Assembly: GCA_964609085.1 (NCBI GenBank)
Contig: CAZSRZ010000002.1
Location: forward strand, 29,477-93,476
Direction of reading: 5' to 3'
DNA length: 64,000 nt
DNA from: an uncultured bacterium
GTDB lineage: Bacteria > Armatimonadota > SYMT01
The translations under genes were made by a program, and so were the position numbers. Positions 3,322-51,306 of this stretch are shown one piece after another; position 1 is the first letter of the stretch; every line of letters begins with the position of its first letter. The notes below the pieces were generated by a model, which worked only from the letters and a program-made list of their open reading frames with translations, did no database searches and was not told the DNA's origin.

Positions 3322-4677
3322 TCACGCGGTGTCGCGCTGCCGTACCTGATCCAGCATCACGGCCCCCAGGATGACGAGCCCCAGGATCACCGTCTGCGTG
3401 TAGCTCTGGACGCCCATGAGGTTCATGCCGTTGCGGATGACGGCGATGACCAGCGCACCGAGCAGGGTGCCGAAGGCCTTTCCCCTACCGCCGGAGAGCG
3501 AGGCACCCCCGACGACGACCGCGGCGATGACGAACAGTTCGTACATCTGCCCGTAGGTCGGCGAGCCGCTGTTGAGCTGGCTGGCCATAACGACGCCCCC
3601 CAGCCCCGCCAGCGCCGCCGATAGGGTGTAGACGATGCACAGGACGCGCTGGATGGGGATCCCGGACAACCGGGCGGCTTCCGCATTGCTGCCGACGGCG
3701 TAGACTGCCCTGCCGCCGCCCGTCCTCGTCATCAGCAGGTGCGCCGTCGCGTAGAGCGCCAGGGTCAGCCAGACCGCGATCGGCAACCCCACCGCCGATC
3801 CGCGACCCAACGTGACGAAACTCTCCGGCAGCCGGTAGACCGACTCCCCCCCGGCGAGGATGAATGCCAACCCGCTTGTTACCAGCATCATTGCGAGCGT
3901 GACGATGAAGGCGGGGATGCGAAACCGCGTGATCATCAGCCCGGTGAACAGTCCGACGGCGCCACACCCGGCGATGCCGACGAGGCAGGCCAGCAACATG
4001 GCTGCGCCGCTCGCCTGCTGGGCGCCGCCCACATCGCGGATGAGTCGGGCGGTGATCACGGCGGAGAGGGCGATCAGACTCCCCACGGAGAGGTCGATTC
4101 CGCCCGTGATGATCACCAGGGTCATCCCGATCGCGAGGATGGCGATGACGGCAATCTGGTTGGCAATGTTCAGCAGGTTCTCGGGTTTCAGAAACACCGA
4201 GCCTCGGTACCTGCTGGGCACCGCTACCACAGCGCCTCGCAGCGCGGGGAACCGGTTCTGTGCGCCATCCCAGAGCGGCCAGGGGGCGGTCGCGCGGCTA
4301 AGCACCAACGCCGCCGCGCTCGCCTTTCCGGCCGACAGTCTGTCCAACTCTTCCCGCGTCTCCGCGGGGCCGCCGCTCAATACGGTGACGCCAACCCCGG
4401 TTATCCTGGCGAGACGCACCCGCAGGGCCTCTGCGAGGGCAGCGTCGTCCGGTCCGGCCGCGACGACGACCAGCACCCGCGCGCCGGGAGTCAGCCGCGG
4501 AGCGACCGACTCCGCCAGTTGCTTCCCCGCGGCAGCGCCTTCAGGCTGCTGGTCCCGAAACGTGGCCAGGCTGAAGAAGGTGCACAGCACCACCAGGGCA
4601 AGGACGATTCCGTAGTCCCCAAGGAACCCGCGGATGGCCTGTCGGACGGGCGAGGTCGCGGTCGCGCCGTCGGTCAC
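3322..4677 (-). CDS. ABC sugar transporter permease (RbsC/BPD_transp_2 family) with an atypical ~110-aa insertion after TM1
   Basis: Core IAVIAILAIGMTLVIITGGIDLSVGS is a ribose-type permease signature with multiple TM segments. The N-terminus holds TM1 and then a long soluble insert not normally present. It overlaps the upstream SBP gene by 4 nt (ATGA). Confidence 0.85.
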   Translation of the reverse strand: MTDGATATSPVRQAIRGFLGDYGIVLALVVLCTFFSLATFRDQQPEGAAAGKQLAESVAPRLTPGARVLVVVAAGPDDAALAEALRVRLARITGVGVTVLSGGPAETREELDRLSAGKASAAALVLSRATAPWPLWDGAQNRFPALRGAVVAVPSRYRGSVFLKPENLLNIANQIAVIAILAIGMTLVIITGGIDLSVGSLIALSAVITARLIRDVGGAQQASGAAMLLACLVGIAGCGAVGLFTGLMITRFRIPAFIVTLAMMLVTSGLAFILAGGESVYRLPESFVTLGRGSAVGLPIAVWLTLALYATAHLLMTRTGGGRAVYAVGSNAEAARLSGIPIQRVLCIVYTLSAALAGLGGVVMASQLNSGSPTYGQMYELFVIAAVVVGGASLSGGRGKAFGTLLGALVIAVIRNGMNLMGVQSYTQTVILGLVILGAVMLDQVRQRDTA

Positions 4678-8313: not shown

Positions 8314-9246
8314 CTATGCGGGCGCCGAGGTCCGGTCGCGGGGCGTCAGCCACTGGAGCTTCGCGCCGCTCGGGCGAATCCGCGCGGGCGTGCCGTCCAG
8401 CAACTCGCCGTCCAGCGTGGGCACAAGGACGGAGGTCGAGTCAACTTGCACTTCCCGGACTCGCCAGGATCGGACGCCGGGGTGGCGCACATGCCCGCCA
8501 GAAAAGATGGAAGGGAACTGGCGCAGCAGCTCCAGTCGCGGGATGTCTCCCACGAGCACCACATCGAGCAGCCCATCGTCGATCACGGCATCCGGTGCGA
8601 TGCGCATCCCGCCGCCGTAGCAGGCCCCGTTGCCAAACGCCACCAGCCATGCTGAGCCGGCGTACGCCAATTCCGCACCGTCGTCGCCCACCAGACGCAT
8701 CTCGATGGGGGGAGGATTGAATCGCGGGAGGGTGCACAGCAGGGCTGTTGCATATGCCGGAGCACCGGTCAGCCAGGTGAATCGCGAGTTCACCGCCTGC
8801 GCAACGGCTGCGTCGAGACCCACCCCAGCGACGTTGACGAACACCGACTCGTTCCAGAGCCAGAGATCGATCGGACGCGTGTTGCCGCTCGCCACCAACT
8901 CCGCCAGCTCCGCAGGGGAGTTCGGCGCCGTCAGTGATCGGACGAGGTCATTGCCCGTCCCCGCGGGCAGGATGCCGACCCGCACGGTCCCCACCCGACC
9001 TGCGTCGTGGAGCCCCTGAACGGCATCGCGCAGGGTTCCATCTCCCCCGATCACGAGCAGCGTGGAGACATCCTCCCCCAACCCGGATGCCAGGCGACGC
9101 GCATCCCCTGGAGCAGAAGTTGGCAGCACGATGGGCGTACCGTGCCGAGCCTGTACGCAGGCCTCCAACTCGCGCAGCCGGGACTCCCCGCGCCCTCGCC
9201 CGGAGCGGGGGTTGCCCAGTAGCGCGACCCGACCCACCTGCTCCAC
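8314..9246 (-). CDS. Diacylglycerol-kinase catalytic-domain lipid kinase (YegS/BmrU family)
   Basis: VALLGNPRSGRG ... LLVIGGDGTLRDAVQGL ... GILPAGTGNDLVRSL are DAGK_cat motifs. GTG start at 9246, 20 nt below the upstream gene stop. Confidence 0.75.
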   Translation of the reverse strand: MEQVGRVALLGNPRSGRGRGESRLRELEACVQARHGTPIVLPTSAPGDARRLASGLGEDVSTLLVIGGDGTLRDAVQGLHDAGRVGTVRVGILPAGTGNDLVRSLTAPNSPAELAELVASGNTRPIDLWLWNESVFVNVAGVGLDAAVAQAVNSRFTWLTGAPAYATALLCTLPRFNPPPIEMRLVGDDGAELAYAGSAWLVAFGNGACYGGGMRIAPDAVIDDGLLDVVLVGDIPRLELLRQFPSIFSGGHVRHPGVRSWRVREVQVDSTSVLVPTLDGELLDGTPARIRPSGAKLQWLTPRDRTSAPA

Positions 9247-33718: not shown

Positions 33719-34441
33719 CTACCCCTCTCTCCGGGCCCGGACGCATAAAAACCCCGGCTCACGCATCAGTTCCGCATGCGCGGCGGGGTCGGCCGCCGCG
33801 AAATCGTCCGTCGGCAGAGGCTCCAGACTGCCATCCAGGCGATATCCCGCCTCCAGTACCGGGTTCAACACGGCAGAGAGGGGGCGCCGGTAGGACGGCA
33901 CCACGACCGGGGTGCCGAAACCGCGCCAGGGAGTCGATTGCACCTCGACGGCGTGATAGCTGTCCGTCCACCTCATCCGCCACGCCGAGGCCGGATGCTC
34001 ACACGAGAAAACCAGCCAACCCCCCGGCCTGGTGATGCGGCGGAACTCCGCCATCACCGCCCGCCAATCGAGGACATAATCCAACGCCAGAGCGCTGACG
34101 ATGCCGTCGAATCGGCCGTCTTCGAAGAGCGAAAGTGGCGTGCCCAGGTCCCAGAGATCCGCTCGGGCGCGGTCCCCCAGCCGAGCGCGGAACTCCGCCA
34201 GCATCGCCGGGGAGACATCAATGCCGTGCACCTGGGCGCCCCGTCCGACCAGCGCTTCCGCGTAGGCGCCCGGTCCGCAGCCGGCATCCAGCACCTGCAG
34301 CCCCTCCAGGGCCGGAAGCAGTGAGAGCACGGCCGGCCGGTCGTAGTAGGCGTTGTGCGGCTTTGTGTCGACTCGCGCGGCATACGGACCGGCCAGTTGC
34401 TCATACGCGGCCAATGCGAGAGGTTCGTTGAGCTTCTCCAT
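33719..34441 (-). CDS. Class I SAM-dependent methyltransferase
   Basis: Motif I VLDAGCGPGAYAE, motif post-I HGIDVS and motif II FDGIVSALAL. ATG at 34441. Confidence 0.8.
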   Translation of the reverse strand: MEKLNEPLALAAYEQLAGPYAARVDTKPHNAYYDRPAVLSLLPALEGLQVLDAGCGPGAYAEALVGRGAQVHGIDVSPAMLAEFRARLGDRARADLWDLGTPLSLFEDGRFDGIVSALALDYVLDWRAVMAEFRRITRPGGWLVFSCEHPASAWRMRWTDSYHAVEVQSTPWRGFGTPVVVPSYRRPLSAVLNPVLEAGYRLDGSLEPLPTDDFAAADPAAHAELMREPGFLCVRARREG

Positions 34442-34454
34442 CGGGGCACTCCGG

Positions 34455-34949
34455 TCAGTACGTCCAGTCCTGTTTCTGCGCCAGCGCCAGGACACCCAGC
34501 AGGCACTCCGGGCTTGGCCGCCCTCGAGGACCGCTGCTGATCCAGAAGCACGAGAGCTTTCCAAGGCTGTCGATGAGGTAGACCGAGGATGCCCGATAGC
34601 AGGTGTATCCGTTCGGTCGCTGCTCGTGCGGTTCGTAGACGTCCAGGAGTTCCCCCACCGCGCCGTCCTCATCCACCAGAATCCGCGGCCGGATCTTGAA
34701 CTGCTCGCGAAACACCCGGTGTTCCTCGCGGCCGCCCCGCACCATGAAGACGAGCTCCGTATTCATGCCACGCAGGATGTGCATGAAGGTGCTCCAGAGG
34801 GCGAACTCGCCCCGAGTGGTGTGTCAGAACTCGCCGCGACACGTGTGGATGATGATCATCTTGCCGAGGAAATCCCGGGATCGCCACACTCTGTCCTCCG
34901 TGTCGCGCAGCTCCAGATCGAGATCCTGTCCGTTCACCAGGCGCGGCAT
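34455..34949 (-). CDS. Thioredoxin-fold redoxin (AhpC/TSA/redoxin family) interrupted by one in-frame TGA (codon 42, nt 34826-34824): candidate selenoprotein or recent pseudogene
   Basis: The read-through translation is MPRLVNGQDLDLELRDTEDRVWRSRDFLGKMIIIHTCRGEF-TGA-HTTRGEFALWSTF...RASSVYLIDSLGKLSCFW. The C-terminal half (ORF 34455..34784) has the redoxin beta-strand pattern. The TGA falls where the active-site Cys motif is expected. See the hairpin feature below. Confidence 0.55.
34797..34826 (-). promoter_or_regulatory. SECIS-like element: UGA + 10 nt + hairpin GGGCG-AGUU-CGCCC
   Basis: Read directly from sequence. The loop GU lies at about +21/+22 from the U of UGA (E. coli fdhF has G23/U24). 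The hairpin overlaps an imperfect 13-nt direct repeat (TCGCGGCGAGTTC / TCGGGGCGAGTTC) that flanks the TGA. Confidence 0.3.
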
Positions 34950-34952
34950 GGG

Positions 34953-35141
34953 TCACAGGCCCTCACTGGCGTGGGGAGGCGCCGGGCGAAACAGCGCGAA
35001 GCAGCTCATGCATCGGAGCGACTCCATTCCATGGGTCATGACCACCTCCAACGTACCGCAGCACTCGGGGCAGAAATCCCGGTCGGAGATCTCCATACGC
35101 ATCACATCACCGCGAACCACGGCCTCGGTCACAAATCGCAT
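34953..35141 (-). CDS. Small 4-Cys zinc-ribbon-like protein (62 aa; CPECCG ... CMSC)
   Basis: Intact ORF whose stop lies 3 nt upstream of the redoxin ATG and whose 5' end overlaps the ferredoxin gene by 13 nt (translational coupling). The pairing of C-x-x-C-C with C-x-x-C suggests metal binding. Confidence 0.35.
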
Positions 35142-35572
35142 TGGAGTTCTGGAGCCGCTGAGAGCGGCTGGCTTGCGGGCGGCTGGCTGGAGAGTGGATT
35201 ACTGGCGAACGCGAACTCAGCCACCGGGCGACCGCCGATGAGGTGCTCCTGGATGATCCGCTCGCATACCTCGGGGGTAACTCCAGCATACCAGGTGCCG
35301 TCCGGATAGACGACGGCGGTGGGGCCTTGACGGCATATCCGCAGGCATCCAACCTTGCTTCGGTAGACAGCGCCGTTCACCAGCCCCAGTTCCTTCAACC
35401 GGCGCTTCAGGTAGTCCCAAGTCGCCAGGCCGACTTCGGACGAGCAGCAGTCTGGCCCGACGCACAGCAGCATGTGCCGCCGGTACTCACCGATACCGAG
35501 CGCCTCGGCGATGCGTTCGAGCTGGCCACGCGGGGGCAGAGCCTCTTCTTCTGGGGTGAGTTCAACCGCCAT
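35129..35572 (-). CDS. Thioredoxin-like [2Fe-2S] ferredoxin
   Basis: CVGPDCCSS ... [21 protein letters not shown] is the Cys ligand pattern of Trx-like 2Fe-2S ferredoxins (NuoE/Aquifex Fd4-like). Confidence 0.75.
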
Positions 35573-35580
35573 GCATCCCC

Positions 35581-36105
35581 CTACCGCAAGATCTCCCACA
35601 CCAGGTGGTCCAGTTCCGGCACGATCAGCTTCTCCAGTGCCAGCTTCACCGCGTTCGTGCTGCCGGGCATGCTGAAGATGAGTCGGTTTGAGTAGACTCC
35701 CGCGGTCGCCCGGCTCAACATCGCCGCGGGGCCGACCTGTTCGTAGCTGAGCACCCGGAAGATCTCTCCGAAGCCGGGGAGAGTCTTTTCCAGGAGGCCG
35801 GTAACGGCGTCATAAGTCGTGTCCCGCTTTGCGATCCCGGTGCCGCCATTGATGAGGATGGCGAGCGCCGGGGTGGTAGCGATGATGCGGTGTATCGCGG
35901 CCTCAATCAGACTCGGCTCGTCGCGCACGATCTCGTGGAACACCACCTGGTGGCCCGCGGCTTCCAGTTGCTCACGGATGGTCCGCCCGCTGGTGTCCGT
36001 CTCCGGGGTCCGCGTGTCGCTGGCGGTGATGATTGCGCAAGTAACGGGACCGCGCTCGGCGGCGGCGGCGCGGTGGGCCTGAGTTGAGGGACTGGCCTCG
36101 GACAT
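35581..36105 (-). CDS. moaB: Molybdenum cofactor biosynthesis protein MoaB/MogA family
   Basis: The MoCF_biosynth fold is indicated by ITASDTR ... [15 protein letters not shown] ... [19 protein letters not shown]. Confidence 0.8.
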
Positions 36106-36230
36106 GGAATCTCCCGCCGGTCAGCCGAGCCGGAGTAGCTGCGGGTGCGGCCATTGATTGTAGTCCCCACACCACCCACAGACAAAGGGTAAACCCCCGG
36201 GCGGAGGCGCTCCACGCGGGGTCCCCGGCG

Positions 36231-37277
36231 CTACAGGAGTACCCGCATTCCTGTCGCCGCGCTTTCGTAGGCGGCGAGGCACATCGCCGTGGAAACCTTT
36301 CCGCCGTGGGCGTCACAGTCCGGCAGTTCGTCGCGCAGCAACTGGTCAATCCAGGGTCGGGGGACGGCGGCGATCCGCTCGCCGTGGGTCTGCGGGATCG
36401 GCATGTGGATTTCCTCAAACCGCTGCCCCGCCCCGCGACGGAGCAGCTTCAGCGGGGCCGCCCCGGGCGGCGCGTGCGGGGTGGAGACGCCGTCGCCGAA
36501 GTAGTGGTGGAGCGTGGCCTGGTCGCCGTAGATCTCCGTGGTGATCTCGGCACCCAGGGTAACGGAGGCATTGTAGAGCAGGCCAAACGAGCGGTCGGCG
36601 AAGCGGTAGATTGCCATCCCGGTATCGTCCGGAGCGCAGTTCGTGAGCGCGTTGCCGATTTCCGCCATCACGCTGACCGGCTTGCCCAGCATCCAGTAGA
36701 GGAAGTCCGCAGCGTGGACGGCGTCGTCCATGAACATGCCTTTGTTGGCCACCGGTTCGATATGCCAGCGGCTGGGGCCGGTGACGAACGTCTCGTTGAA
36801 GAGGAGATTCAGGCAGTGTCGGCGGCGCAGGGTGCCGATCTTGCCGAAGATCCCCTCCTCTGCCATTTGCTTCATCCGCTGATTGACGGGATCGCAGCGC
36901 ATCTGGAACGCCATCCGCAGGGTGACTCCGGCCCGTTCTACCGCCTGGATGATCGTGTCGCAGTCCGCCACGGTGAGGGCCATCGGTTTCTGGAGCAGGA
37001 TCTGTTTGCCCGCCGCTGCCGCAGCAAGGCAGTGCGCCGTGTGTTTGTTGGTCTCACTGGTGACGATGACGGCGTCGATGTCCGGCCGACCGAGTAGATC
37101 CTCCAGGTGGGGAGAGTAGTCCATCCCGAAGGAGGCTGCCTGCTTCTCGCCCCGCGCGGTGTCATCGTCCCAGGCAGCCACCAGGCGCACGTCGTCCCAC
37201 TGCTTCATCTGGTTGCAGTACATGACGACGTGCCCGTGGGCGAAGCTGATCACCCCAATCCCGATCTTCTTCCCCAT
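36231..37277 (-). CDS. Gfo/Idh/MocA family oxidoreductase (cytoplasmic)
   Basis: MGKKIGIGVISFAHGHV Rossmann N-terminus and the LLQKPMAL motif. Confidence 0.85.
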   Translation of the reverse strand: MGKKIGIGVISFAHGHVVMYCNQMKQWDDVRLVAAWDDDTARGEKQAASFGMDYSPHLEDLLGRPDIDAVIVTSETNKHTAHCLAAAAAGKQILLQKPMALTVADCDTIIQAVERAGVTLRMAFQMRCDPVNQRMKQMAEEGIFGKIGTLRRRHCLNLLFNETFVTGPSRWHIEPVANKGMFMDDAVHAADFLYWMLGKPVSVMAEIGNALTNCAPDDTGMAIYRFADRSFGLLYNASVTLGAEITTEIYGDQATLHHYFGDGVSTPHAPPGAAPLKLLRRGAGQRFEEIHMPIPQTHGERIAAVPRPWIDQLLRDELPDCDAHGGKVSTAMCLAAYESAATGMRVLL

Positions 37278-51175: not shown

Positions 51176-51224
51176 CGAGTCGCTCCCGTTTGGCAGCGTC
51201 TCTCGTCGCCGCCCGGTGTTCGTG

Positions 51225-51306
51225 TGCCGAAGGCGGGGGTCGAACCCGCACTCCTTTCGGAACCGGTTTTTGAGACCGGCGCGTCTGCCTATTCCGCCAC
51301 TTCGGC
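51225..51306 (-). tRNA. tRNA-Leu (anticodon CAA), type II with long variable arm
   Basis: Hand-folded from sequence: a 7-bp acceptor stem (GCCGAAG/CTTCGGC), anticodon loop CUCAAAA, T-arm GCGGG-TTCGACC-CCCGC and a long extra arm. CCA is not encoded. Confidence 0.85.

What the first reader, a model, noticed from the sequence alone, without database searches (positions are those of the whole stretch)
34455..34949. Redoxin gene with a single in-frame TGA followed by a SECIS-like hairpin: candidate selenoprotein (or very recent pseudogene)
The sequence shows a thioredoxin-fold ORF (redoxin C-terminal beta-strand pattern RASSVYLIDSLGKLS) whose N-terminal third is separated from the rest by one TGA at codon 42. 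This is exactly where the redox-active residue of AhpC/TSA/redoxin proteins is expected. On the mRNA strand, the 10 nt after UGA are followed by a perfect GGGCG/CGCCC hairpin with an AGUU loop. The loop G/U sit about 21-22 nt from the UGA U, close to the G23/U24 geometry of the E. coli fdhF SECIS. Established knowledge: bacterial selenoproteomes are dominated by thioredoxin-fold redox proteins (Prx-like, Trx-like, AhpD-like) carrying Sec in place of a redox Cys. Counter-evidence: the TGA is flanked by an imperfect 13-nt direct repeat (TCGCGGCGAGTTC...TCGGGGCGAGTTC, giving RGEF-stop-HTTRGEF), so a 24-nt slippage duplication creating a nonsense codon is also possible. Both outcomes are interesting. 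A Planctomycete-like selenoprotein with an unusual C-x4-U arrangement would be new; otherwise this is a fresh pseudogenisation inside an otherwise intact operon.
Basis: partly seen in the sequence, partly recalled or inferred. Interest (0 to 1): 0.65.

Follow-up and report, generated by a model that had tools for sequence, protein, structure and literature searches.

The report
Selenocysteine redoxin gene with conserved SECIS
The apparent stop codon inside this small redox-enzyme gene is almost certainly read as selenocysteine. The same TGA, followed by the same RNA hairpin, is kept in dozens of related bacteria, and public annotations cut all of these genes short.

Summary
A 164-codon AhpC/TSA-type thioredoxin-fold gene lies on the minus strand (34949..34455). 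It has one in-frame TGA at codon 42 (34826..34824). Ten nucleotides downstream is a GGGGCG-AGUU-CGCCCU hairpin.

Comparative data support the selenoprotein reading and rule out a fresh pseudogene:
- 37 distinct homologous loci, mostly Armatimonadota MAGs down to 52% protein identity, carry TGA at this codon. Protein sequence is conserved on both sides of it.
- 14 loci carry TGC or TGT there instead.
- The RGEF...RGEF "repeat" is an old family motif, also present in the Cys forms. It is not a slippage duplication.
- In the TGA forms the hairpin codons are frozen at synonymous sites (CGG GGC GAG TTC GCC in 28/31; about 4% expected from codon usage). None of 13 Cys forms has this combination.
- Stem and loop are intact in 37/37 TGA forms and 1/14 Cys forms.
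- The hairpin meets all four constraints of the published bacterial SECIS model.

Sec sits just before helix 1, at the position of the first Cys of a CxxC motif, giving a UxxT motif. It is not at the classical peroxiredoxin TxxC cysteine.

Not shown: selA, selB, selC and selD in this genome. No NCBIfam model and no entry in a 2026 catalogue matches the family. I rate it a new member of a well-known kind.

The parts
34455..34949 (-). Complete read-through gene: 164 codons plus the terminal TGA (34457..34455). It encodes an AhpC/TSA-type thioredoxin-fold redoxin with Sec at residue 42.
   Evidence: Translation. Pfam AhpC-TSA 29.7 bits over residues 11-132, spanning the TGA. Full-length Cys homologues of 167 aa align end to end.
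34824..34826 (-). In-frame UGA at codon 42, the inferred Sec codon.
   Evidence: TGA at this codon in 37 distinct loci and TGC/TGT in 14. TGA is otherwise the commonest terminator in the window, and it terminates 20/31 of these same genes.
34794..34819 (-). Bacterial SECIS-type hairpin. Lower stem CCA/UGG (34819..34817 with 34796..34794). Upper stem GGGGCG/CGCCCU (34813..34808 with 34803..34798). Apical loop AGUU (34807..34804).
   Evidence: MFE structure. Inner 5 bp and AGUU loop intact in 37/37 TGA forms vs 1/14 Cys forms. Codons 46-50 are frozen at synonymous sites in TGA forms only. One compensatory G:C to A:U change, plus G:C to G:U changes: two among the 36 rows scored, and a third locus (L064). 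Meets all four bSECIS model constraints given in PMC13188914.
34827..34949 (-). N-terminal 41 codons: beta-hairpin, strand beta1 (KMIIIH) and the active-site loop TCRGEF. Gene callers leave this as an orphan 41-42 aa ORF or drop it.
   Evidence: Mean pairwise amino-acid identity among TGA forms is 63% upstream of U and 69% downstream. Orphan 41-42 aa ORFs are called in L001-L004.
34839..34841 (-). Cys37 (TGT), five residues upstream of Sec. A possible resolving or partner thiol, but not invariant.
   Evidence: Cys in 77% of Sec forms and 69% of Cys forms. Replaced by Gly or Val in others, such as L001, L003, L012 and L055.
34953..35141 (-). 62-aa zinc-ribbon protein gene. Its TGA stop lies 3 nt upstream of the redoxin ATG. 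It is the most consistently linked neighbour in the closer clade.
   Evidence: Weak Pfam Zn_ribbon hits. Found 170-300 nt upstream of the redoxin in about 18 loci.

Best explanation
This is an intact selenoprotein gene.

Recoding step. The ribosome reaches UGA at codon 42. The mRNA hairpin 10 nt downstream (GGGGCG-AGUU-CGCCCU over a short CCA/UGG lower stem) acts as a bacterial SECIS. It recruits SelB-GTP-Sec-tRNA(Sec), so selenocysteine is inserted and a 164-residue protein is made.

The protein. It has an AhpC/TSA/redoxin-type thioredoxin fold. Sec sits in the loop immediately before helix 1. That is the position of the nucleophilic first Cys of a CxxC motif, as in ResA and TlpA. It is also the position of the Thr in the peroxiredoxin TxxC motif. 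The local motif is U-[H/P]-T-T (UxxT).

Inferred chemistry. I infer a single-selenol redox enzyme. The selenolate attacks a peroxide, a sulfenic acid or a disulfide. The oxidised selenium is then resolved by a thiol, either Cys37, the nearly invariant Cys134, or an external reductant.

What is shown: conservation of the UGA, the Sec/Cys pairing, SECIS constraint limited to UGA forms, and the fold and position of Sec.
What is inferred: SelB dependence, actual selenium incorporation, substrate and reductant.
For: 1. The domain spans the TGA. Pfam AhpC-TSA covers residues 11-132.
2. Homologue lengths fit a conserved TGA. About 80 of about 100 database homologues are called as 96-111 aa fragments starting after the TGA. 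About 15 are full-length 167-aa proteins with Cys at that column.
3. In fetched DNA, TGA sits at the same codon in 37 distinct loci and TGC/TGT in 14. Sec-form proteins diverge to 52% identity, and both halves are conserved.
4. There is no conserved start for a separate downstream protein. The first Met after the TGA (window codon 56) is Met in only 9/31, and the peptide HTTRGEFALW between the TGA and that Met is conserved.
5. Synonymous sites in the hairpin are frozen. Codons 46-50 have modal-codon fractions of 0.94-1.0, against a mean of 0.65 for 62 other conserved degenerate codons. All five modal codons occur together in 28/31 Sec forms (4% expected) and 0/13 Cys forms. Arg46 is CGG in 30/31 Sec forms and never in Cys forms, which use CGC in 11/12.
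6. Stem and AGUU loop are intact in 37/37 Sec forms vs 1/14 Cys forms (Fisher 3e-11, not corrected for phylogeny). A rough neighbour-joining tree needs at least 4 Sec/Cys switches.
7. The rare changes in Sec forms preserve pairing: G:C to A:U in L039, and G:C to G:U in L028, L047 and L064.
8. The hairpin satisfies the bSECIS model: 4-nt loop, 6-bp upper stem, G at loop position 2 followed by U, 16 nt between UGA and loop, MFE -14.9 kcal/mol.
9. TGA is a normal terminator here.
10. An AF2 model of the Cys homologue P0003 (pLDDT 83) places the Cys equivalent to Sec directly before helix 48-58. The top fold matches are Bcp, ResA and Prx. HMMER aligns it to ResA Cys74.
11. Literature: Armatimonadota MAGs carry Sec-type hydrogenases and canonical tRNA-Sec (PMC13582414).
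Against: - No selA, selB, selD or tRNA-Sec was found in the 64-kb window or in about 0.5 Mb of related loci. The rest of the genome could not be searched, so the machinery is unverified for this organism.
- Covariation support is thin. The stem is nearly invariant, with one compensatory pair, and 11/500 shuffles reach the observed score.
- The single-sequence fold is not significant (z = -1.34).
- The hairpin overlaps conserved amino acids (RGEFAL), so part of its conservation is protein-driven. The synonymous-site argument and the Cys-form contrast address this, but the loci are phylogenetically related.
- The structure was modelled on a 60%-identical Cys homologue, not on the window protein.
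- There are no experimental data.
Confidence: 0.87

Rival explanations
1. SECIS- and SelB-dependent recoding of this UGA as cysteine rather than selenocysteine. A non-canonical tRNA(ReC)/SelC*-type tRNA would do this, either exclusively or alongside Sec.
For: PMC13582414 reports tRNA(ReC)-like tRNAs, in addition to canonical tRNA-Sec, in 5/5 Armatimonadota genomes carrying UXXU hydrogenases. It cites Vargas-Rodriguez et al. 2018 for UGA-to-Cys decoding when a SECIS is present. Everything found here (conserved UGA, SECIS, Cys in orthologues) is equally compatible with this reading.
Against: The same paper finds canonical tRNA-Sec in those genomes. It is hard to see why UGA plus a costly SECIS constraint would be held across 52%-divergent lineages if a plain TGC codon gave the same product. 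No tRNA of either kind could be examined for this genome.
Confidence: 0.07
2. A recent pseudogene. A 24-nt slippage duplication (RGEF-stop-HTT-RGEF) introduced a nonsense codon into a Cys-type redoxin.
For: A 12/13-identical 13-nt direct repeat flanks the TGA in the window.
Against: Both RGE[FY] copies and the intervening x-x-T-T are present in all family members, including Cys forms, so nothing is inserted relative to the relatives. The TGA is shared by 37 distinct loci with purifying selection on both sides. In other members the upstream copy differs at the DNA level, for example CGGGGCGTTTAC and CGCGGAGAATAC.
Confidence: 0.01
3. The gene is truly split or truncated. Translation stops at the TGA, and only a 41-aa peptide and/or a 109-aa C-terminal protein starting at Met56 is made, as public annotations show.
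For: Gene callers annotate 96-111 aa products in every source.
Against: Met56 is not conserved (9/31). The segment between the TGA and the called starts is conserved as protein. The C-terminal piece would lack strand beta1 and the active-site helix start of the thioredoxin fold, and alone it scores only 14 bits against AhpC-TSA. This reading gives no explanation for the frozen synonymous sites.
Confidence: 0.02

Closest known systems
Prx-like thiol:disulfide oxidoreductase selenoproteins (PF00578, UxxC/UxxU; Kryukov & Gladyshev / Zhang & Gladyshev families, as listed in PMC13188914)
   Same: AhpC/TSA-type thioredoxin fold. Sec is at the N-terminal position of the CxxC-equivalent motif, just before helix 1. 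A bSECIS hairpin follows the UGA directly inside the coding region. Cys-containing orthologues exist.
   Different: The +3 residue is Thr, not Cys or Sec (U-[H/P]-T-T), so no CxxC-type dithiol/selenol pair is possible. The family has its own signature (RGE[FY]-U-x-TTRGEF and W[IL][LS]SGPRGRPSPE). It was found almost only in Armatimonadota MAGs. Direct homology to the catalogued exemplar WP_010940744.1 was not tested.
[quoted passage not shown]
   Same: AhpC/TSA-like scaffold. The motif is monoselenol: Sec followed at +3 by a hydroxyl residue (UxxS there, UxxT here).
   Different: Ser versus Thr at +3. The organisms differ (deltaproteobacterial symbionts versus Armatimonadota).
PrxU, the Sec-containing peroxiredoxin of Eubacterium acidaminophilum (TxxU; NCBIfam NF040737)
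   Same: Same Pfam family, with Sec replacing a redox Cys.
   Different: In PrxU, Sec is the peroxidatic residue in the first helical turn (PxxxTxxU). Here Sec sits three residues earlier, at the Thr position. The NF040737 score is 11 bits against a cutoff of 270.
ResA/TlpA-type CxxC thiol-disulfide oxidoreductases (PDB 1st9, 1su9)
   Same: Profile and fold matches at E about 1e-10 to 1e-12. Sec aligns with the nucleophilic Cys74 of ResA.
   Different: No second Cys at +3. The cis-Pro before strand beta3 is not conserved: the window has A-S-S where relatives have A-P-A/S. The protein looks cytoplasmic, with no evident signal or anchor at the N-terminus on reading the sequence.
Glutathione peroxidase (GPX-like selenoproteins, PF00255, UxxT)
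   Same: Thioredoxin fold with Sec at the N-terminus of helix 1 and a UxxT motif (motif as listed in PMC13188914). It is a plausible functional analogue as a one-selenol peroxidase.
   Different: No Pfam GSHPx match at E <= 1. The Gln/Trp/Asn catalytic residues of GPx were not identified. This is a resemblance only.
E. coli fdhF SECIS (from own knowledge)
   Same: A stem-loop starting about 10-11 nt after UGA. The small apical loop has G-U as the critical bases, about 21-24 nt from the UGA.
   Different: The upper stem is shorter, with no bulged U. The loop is AGUU rather than GGUC. G and U lie at +21/+22 instead of +23/+24.

Membership tests
Bacterial selenoprotein gene | In-frame UGA conserved at the same codon in orthologues, with coding conservation on both sides | tested here: met
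   37 distinct TGA loci. Amino-acid identity is 63% upstream and 69% downstream of U.
Bacterial selenoprotein gene | Cys-containing homologues whose Cys aligns with the UGA (Sec/Cys pair) | tested here: met
   14 loci with TGC/TGT, and about 15 full-length database proteins with Cys at that column.
Bacterial selenoprotein gene | bSECIS model (PMC13188914): 3-9 nt apical loop; 4-16 bp upper stem; G in the first two loop positions; 16-37 nt from UGA to loop; MFE <= -7.5 kcal/mol | tested here: met
   Loop AGUU (4 nt). Upper stem 6 bp. G at loop position 2, followed by U. 16 nt between UGA and loop. MFE -14.9 kcal/mol. bSECISearch itself was not run.
Bacterial selenoprotein gene | SECIS conserved beyond what the protein sequence requires, and lost in Cys forms | tested here: met
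   All five modal codons together in 28/31 Sec forms (4% expected) and 0/13 Cys forms. Hairpin intact in 37/37 vs 1/14.
Bacterial selenoprotein gene | selA, selB, selD and tRNA-Sec present in the same genome | not testable with these tools
   None found in the window or in about 0.5 Mb of related loci. There is only phylum-level support from PMC13582414.
Bacterial selenoprotein gene | Selenium demonstrated in the protein (75Se labelling or mass spectrometry) | not testable with these tools
   Needs an experiment.
Pfam AhpC/TSA (PF00578) | Whole-protein score at or above the gathering threshold | tested here: met
   29.7 bits vs 26, with U replaced by C. Homologues carry precomputed PF00578 and PF08534 hits.
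Canonical peroxiredoxin (Prx/Bcp/PrxU) | PxxxTxxC(U) motif, with the redox residue at the C position in the first turn of the helix | tested here: not met
   Sec aligns with the Thr position of Bcp4 (FTSVS) and lies before the helix. The +3 residue is Thr. NCBIfam PrxU 11 bits vs 270 and PrxQ 13 bits vs 260.
TlpA/ResA-type CxxC oxidoreductase | CxxC (or UxxC) active-site pair | tested here: not met
   The motif is U-[H/P]-T-T in all 37 Sec forms, and C-[H/P]-T-[T/P] in Cys forms.

The most novel reading that the evidence does not exclude
This would be an uncatalogued selenoprotein family essentially restricted to Armatimonadota. It is an AhpC/TSA-scaffold enzyme whose only essential redox residue is a Sec at the helix-1 N-cap in a UxxT motif. 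That would make it a glutathione-peroxidase-like one-selenol active site built convergently on a peroxiredoxin/ResA scaffold. Its SECIS is so invariant (a 16-nt core identical across 52%-divergent proteins) that it could serve as a lineage-specific probe. Because Armatimonadota also carry tRNA(ReC)-like tRNAs, the same UGA/SECIS might be decoded as either Sec or Cys depending on selenium supply.
Probability: 0.4. Interest if true: 0.5.

Novelty: new member of a known kind. Interest (0 to 1): 0.42.

Why it matters
Practical value. Every public call of the TGA-form genes seen here is a truncated 96-111 aa fragment, named "hypothetical protein" or "peroxiredoxin" where named at all. Recognising the Sec codon restores a full thioredoxin-fold enzyme in dozens of soil and freshwater Armatimonadota MAGs. 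It also adds a selenoprotein to a phylum whose selenium use is barely documented.

Value as an example. The family is an unusually clean natural case of SECIS constraint. The synonymous sites of five codons are frozen while UGA is present and are released in each lineage that switched to Cys.

Limits. Thioredoxin-fold Prx-like selenoproteins are the commonest class of bacterial selenoprotein, so a specialist would find this expected rather than surprising.

Tried and rejected
- Plasmid database megablast of 34000-36000: no match.
- Exact look-up of the window's own 109-aa fragment (P0001) for its contig: not on record. Its cluster carries no name or accession, so the source assembly could not be identified.
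The 60%-identical Cys homologue P0003 was modelled instead.
- Rfam at a permissive E-value over 34300-35100: only chance hits, with no SECIS or tRNA-Sec family match.
- ARAGORN on the window and 23 loci: no tRNA-Sec.
- Scan of the window for other in-frame-TGA split genes, using a GC3 filter: only this gene was credible. The other 37 candidates were non-coding frames or ordinary stops between genes.
- Supplementary tables of PMC13582414, to look for these assemblies among Sec-utilising Armatimonadota: not held.
- A SelA/SelB homologue search to trace the machinery to the same MAGs was considered and not run. Without an Armatimonadota query, the top hits would have been enterobacterial.
- Operon-based functional inference was largely abandoned. 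The MoaB / 2Fe-2S ferredoxin-like / Zn-ribbon / redoxin order holds only in the closer clade.

Full report
**1. What is in the sequence**

The gene lies on the minus strand. Its ATG is at 34949 and its terminal TGA at 34457..34455. Translation gives 41 codons, a TGA at codon 42 (34826..34824), and then 122 more sense codons:

...GKMIIIHTCRGEF-*-HTTRGEFALWSTFMHIL...SSVYLIDSLGKLSCFWISSGPRGRPSPEC...DWTY*

With the stop replaced by Cys, the protein matches Pfam AhpC-TSA above threshold (29.7 bits, gathering score 26) over residues 11-132, so the match runs across the TGA. The post-TGA fragment alone scores only 14 bits.

After the TGA come 10 nt (CACACCACUC). They are followed by GGGGCG (34813..34808), the loop AGUU (34807..34804) and CGCCCU (34803..34798). 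A 3-bp lower stem, CCA/UGG, flanks this.

Taken alone, the hairpin is not statistically remarkable. Its MFE is -14.9 kcal/mol, with z = -1.34 against dinucleotide shuffles.

**2. Homologues decide between selenoprotein and pseudogene**

A search of about 5.8 billion proteins returned about 100 relatives.
- About 15 are full-length 167-aa proteins carrying PF00578/PF08534.
- About 80 are 96-111 aa fragments that begin just after the position of the TGA.

In the alignment, the full-length proteins have Cys exactly at the TGA column, within HFCRGEYC[H/P]TTRGEF. The RGEF...RGEF "duplication" is thus an ancient feature of the whole family. No relative lacks the 24-nt segment.

Fetching DNA for the truncated forms showed an orphan 41-42 aa ORF directly upstream. 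Read through, the genes contain an in-frame TGA at the same codon. One scan of species-representative genomes and one of metagenomes added more loci.

In total, 37 distinct sequences carry TGA and 14 carry TGC or TGT. The TGA forms diverge to 52% protein identity, with a mean of 68%. They are conserved both upstream (63%) and downstream (69%) of the TGA.

The first Met after the TGA is not conserved (9/31), so a separately initiated C-terminal protein is not credible.

TGA is the commonest terminator in the window, and it terminates 20/31 of these same genes. The genetic code is therefore not generally reassigned.

Labelled carriers are mostly Armatimonadota or Abditibacteriaceae MAGs. Four contigs from three MAGs are labelled Actinomycetota or Actinomycetes, and none is Planctomycetes.

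**3. The hairpin behaves as a SECIS**

The five hairpin codons (Arg46-Gly-Glu-Phe-Ala50) behave very differently in the two forms:

| Measure | 31 full-length TGA forms | 13 Cys forms |
|---|---|---|
| CGG GGC GAG TTC GCC all together | 28/31 (about 4% expected from these genes' own codon usage) | 0/13 |
| Arg46 codon | CGG in 30/31 | CGC in 11/12, never CGG |

- Modal-codon fractions for the five codons are 0.94-1.0. The mean for 62 other conserved degenerate codons is 0.65, and only one of those reaches 0.93.
- The same residues R-G-E-F eight codons upstream use mixed codons: CGG 15 / CGC 15, GAG 24 / GAA 6, TTC 20 / TTT 4.
- The inner 5-bp stem with an AGUU loop is intact in 37/37 TGA forms and 1/14 Cys forms (Fisher 3e-11, not corrected for phylogeny).
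- A rough NJ tree needs at least four Sec/Cys switches, so the association does not rest on a single event.
- The few changes in TGA forms keep pairing. L039 has G15:C28 changed to A:U. L028, L047 and L064 have G:C changed to G:U.

Formal covariation is weak because the stem hardly varies: one compensatory pair, and 11/500 shuffles reach the observed score. The argument therefore rests on synonymous-site constraint and on the Sec-versus-Cys contrast.

The element meets all four constraints of the published bSECIS model (PMC13188914):
- a 3-9 nt loop;
- a 4-16 bp upper stem;
- G in the first two loop positions, followed by G or U;
- 16-37 nt from UGA to the loop (here 16), with MFE <= -7.5 kcal/mol.

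**4. Where Sec sits and how the protein probably works**

The window protein could not be submitted for modelling. The 60%-identical Cys homologue P0003 was modelled with a 29-sequence alignment, giving pLDDT 83 and pTM 0.82.

In the model, strand MVILHF is followed by the loop CRGVYC, and helix 48-58 starts right after Cys47, the residue equivalent to Sec. That is the N-cap position taken by the first, nucleophilic Cys of CxxC proteins.

HMMER aligns this residue with Cys74 of ResA and with the Thr of the Bcp4 "FTSVS" (TxxC) motif. Foldseek's best matches are Bcp4, ResA, PrxQ and typical Prx, with TM about 0.7-0.8.

The motif is U-[H/P]-T-T, so there is no CxxC partner. Sec also does not occupy the canonical peroxidatic position. 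Cys134 (SCFW) is about 90% conserved.

I infer a one-selenol redox enzyme, either a peroxidase or a sulfenate/disulfide reductase. Its oxidised selenium would be resolved by Cys37, Cys134 or an external thiol. This part is inference, not shown.

**5. What is not shown**

- No selA, selB, selD or tRNA-Sec lies in the window or in about 0.5 Mb of fetched loci. The rest of the genome was out of reach.
- Phylum-level support exists. PMC13582414 reports Sec-type group 4 hydrogenases and canonical tRNA-Sec in Armatimonadota MAGs.
- The same paper reports tRNA(ReC)-like tRNAs in 5/5 of those genomes. These can decode UGA plus SECIS as Cys, so Cys insertion at this codon remains a minor rival.

**6. 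Comparison with known families**

The 2026 inventory of prokaryotic selenoproteins (PMC13188914) lists these relevant families:

| Family | Motif |
|---|---|
| Prx (PF00578) | TxxU |
| Prx-like thiol:disulfide oxidoreductase (PF00578) | UxxC / UxxU |
| AhpC/TSA-like (cd02970) | UxxS |
| Redoxin (PF08534) | UxxC |
| TlpA-like | UGC |
| Prx-SUH | CxxU |

None is a PF00578/PF08534 family with UxxT.

NCBIfam (June 2026) has no model for the family. The best scores are 13 and 11 bits, against cutoffs of 260-270. No source annotates any TGA form through the stop.

Two literature searches, pairing "Armatimonadetes" with "selenoprotein" and "Armatimonadota" with "selenocysteine", found three papers, none describing this family.

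It is therefore best described as a new, probably uncatalogued member of the very well-known class of thioredoxin-fold Prx-like selenoproteins. Homology to the catalogued exemplars could not be tested directly.

**7. Context**

In the window and its closer relatives the gene follows this order: a GFO/IDH/MocA oxidoreductase, a MoaB/MogA-like protein, a thioredoxin-like 2Fe-2S-ferredoxin-like protein, and a 62-aa zinc ribbon. The order is not kept in the more distant clades, so it gives little functional leverage.

**8. Verdict**

- The selenoprotein interpretation is supported, with confidence about 0.87 that the UGA is recoded through this SECIS to give a full-length Sec protein.
- The pseudogene alternative is rejected.
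- Interest is moderate. This is a clean, mis-annotated, likely uncatalogued family, but of the most expected kind.

Noticed in passing
window 34953-37277 (minus strand): Gene order: GFO/IDH/MocA oxidoreductase (36231-37277), MoaB/MogA-like (35581-36105), a 156-aa Cys-rich protein (35129-35599) and a 62-aa zinc ribbon (34953-35141), then the Sec-redoxin. The 156-aa protein resembles thioredoxin-like 2Fe-2S ferredoxins (NCBIfam fdxn_Clost E = 1e-11, below cutoff; no Pfam hit). The order recurs only in the closer clade of loci. The ferredoxin-like protein could be a redox partner.
   Followed up: partly
L021 (JACQGJ010000226.1), about 9113-9145: This TGA-form gene carries a second in-frame TGA replacing the otherwise invariant Trp52 (TGG to TGA), just 3' of the SECIS. 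It may be a true pseudogene, a sequencing error or a second recoding event.
   Followed up: no
L039 (JGI10216J12902_100417081), about 4074-4568: An ATG follows the TGA directly (U-M-T-T), which is presumably why the related database entry P0018 (123 aa) begins at 'MTTRGEF'. This locus also holds the only compensatory SECIS change (G:C to A:U), together with a Leu-to-Tyr replacement.
   Followed up: partly
L005/L031 (SYMT01000308.1), L022/L059 and L023/L067 (SYKE01), L011 (JANPLG01): MAGs labelled Actinomycetota or Actinomycetes carry this gene, and in most cases the same neighbours, at 68-77% identity to the window, like the Armatimonadota MAGs. The taxonomic labels, or the binning, look doubtful.
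   Followed up: no
window 34953-34955 / 34947-34949: The zinc-ribbon gene ends in TGA only 3 nt before the redoxin ATG and in the same reading frame (...ASEGL*PMPRLVNG...). This is an ordinary stop. No conservation across it was examined.
   Followed up: no
window 35581-35599: The MoaB-like gene and the 2Fe-2S-ferredoxin-like ORF overlap by 19 nt if the longest ORF (GTG start at 35599) is taken. The true start of the latter may be further downstream, since homologues are called at 141 aa.
   Followed up: no
window 51224-51306 (minus strand): tRNA-Leu (CAA) is the only tRNA in the 64-kb window.
   Followed up: no
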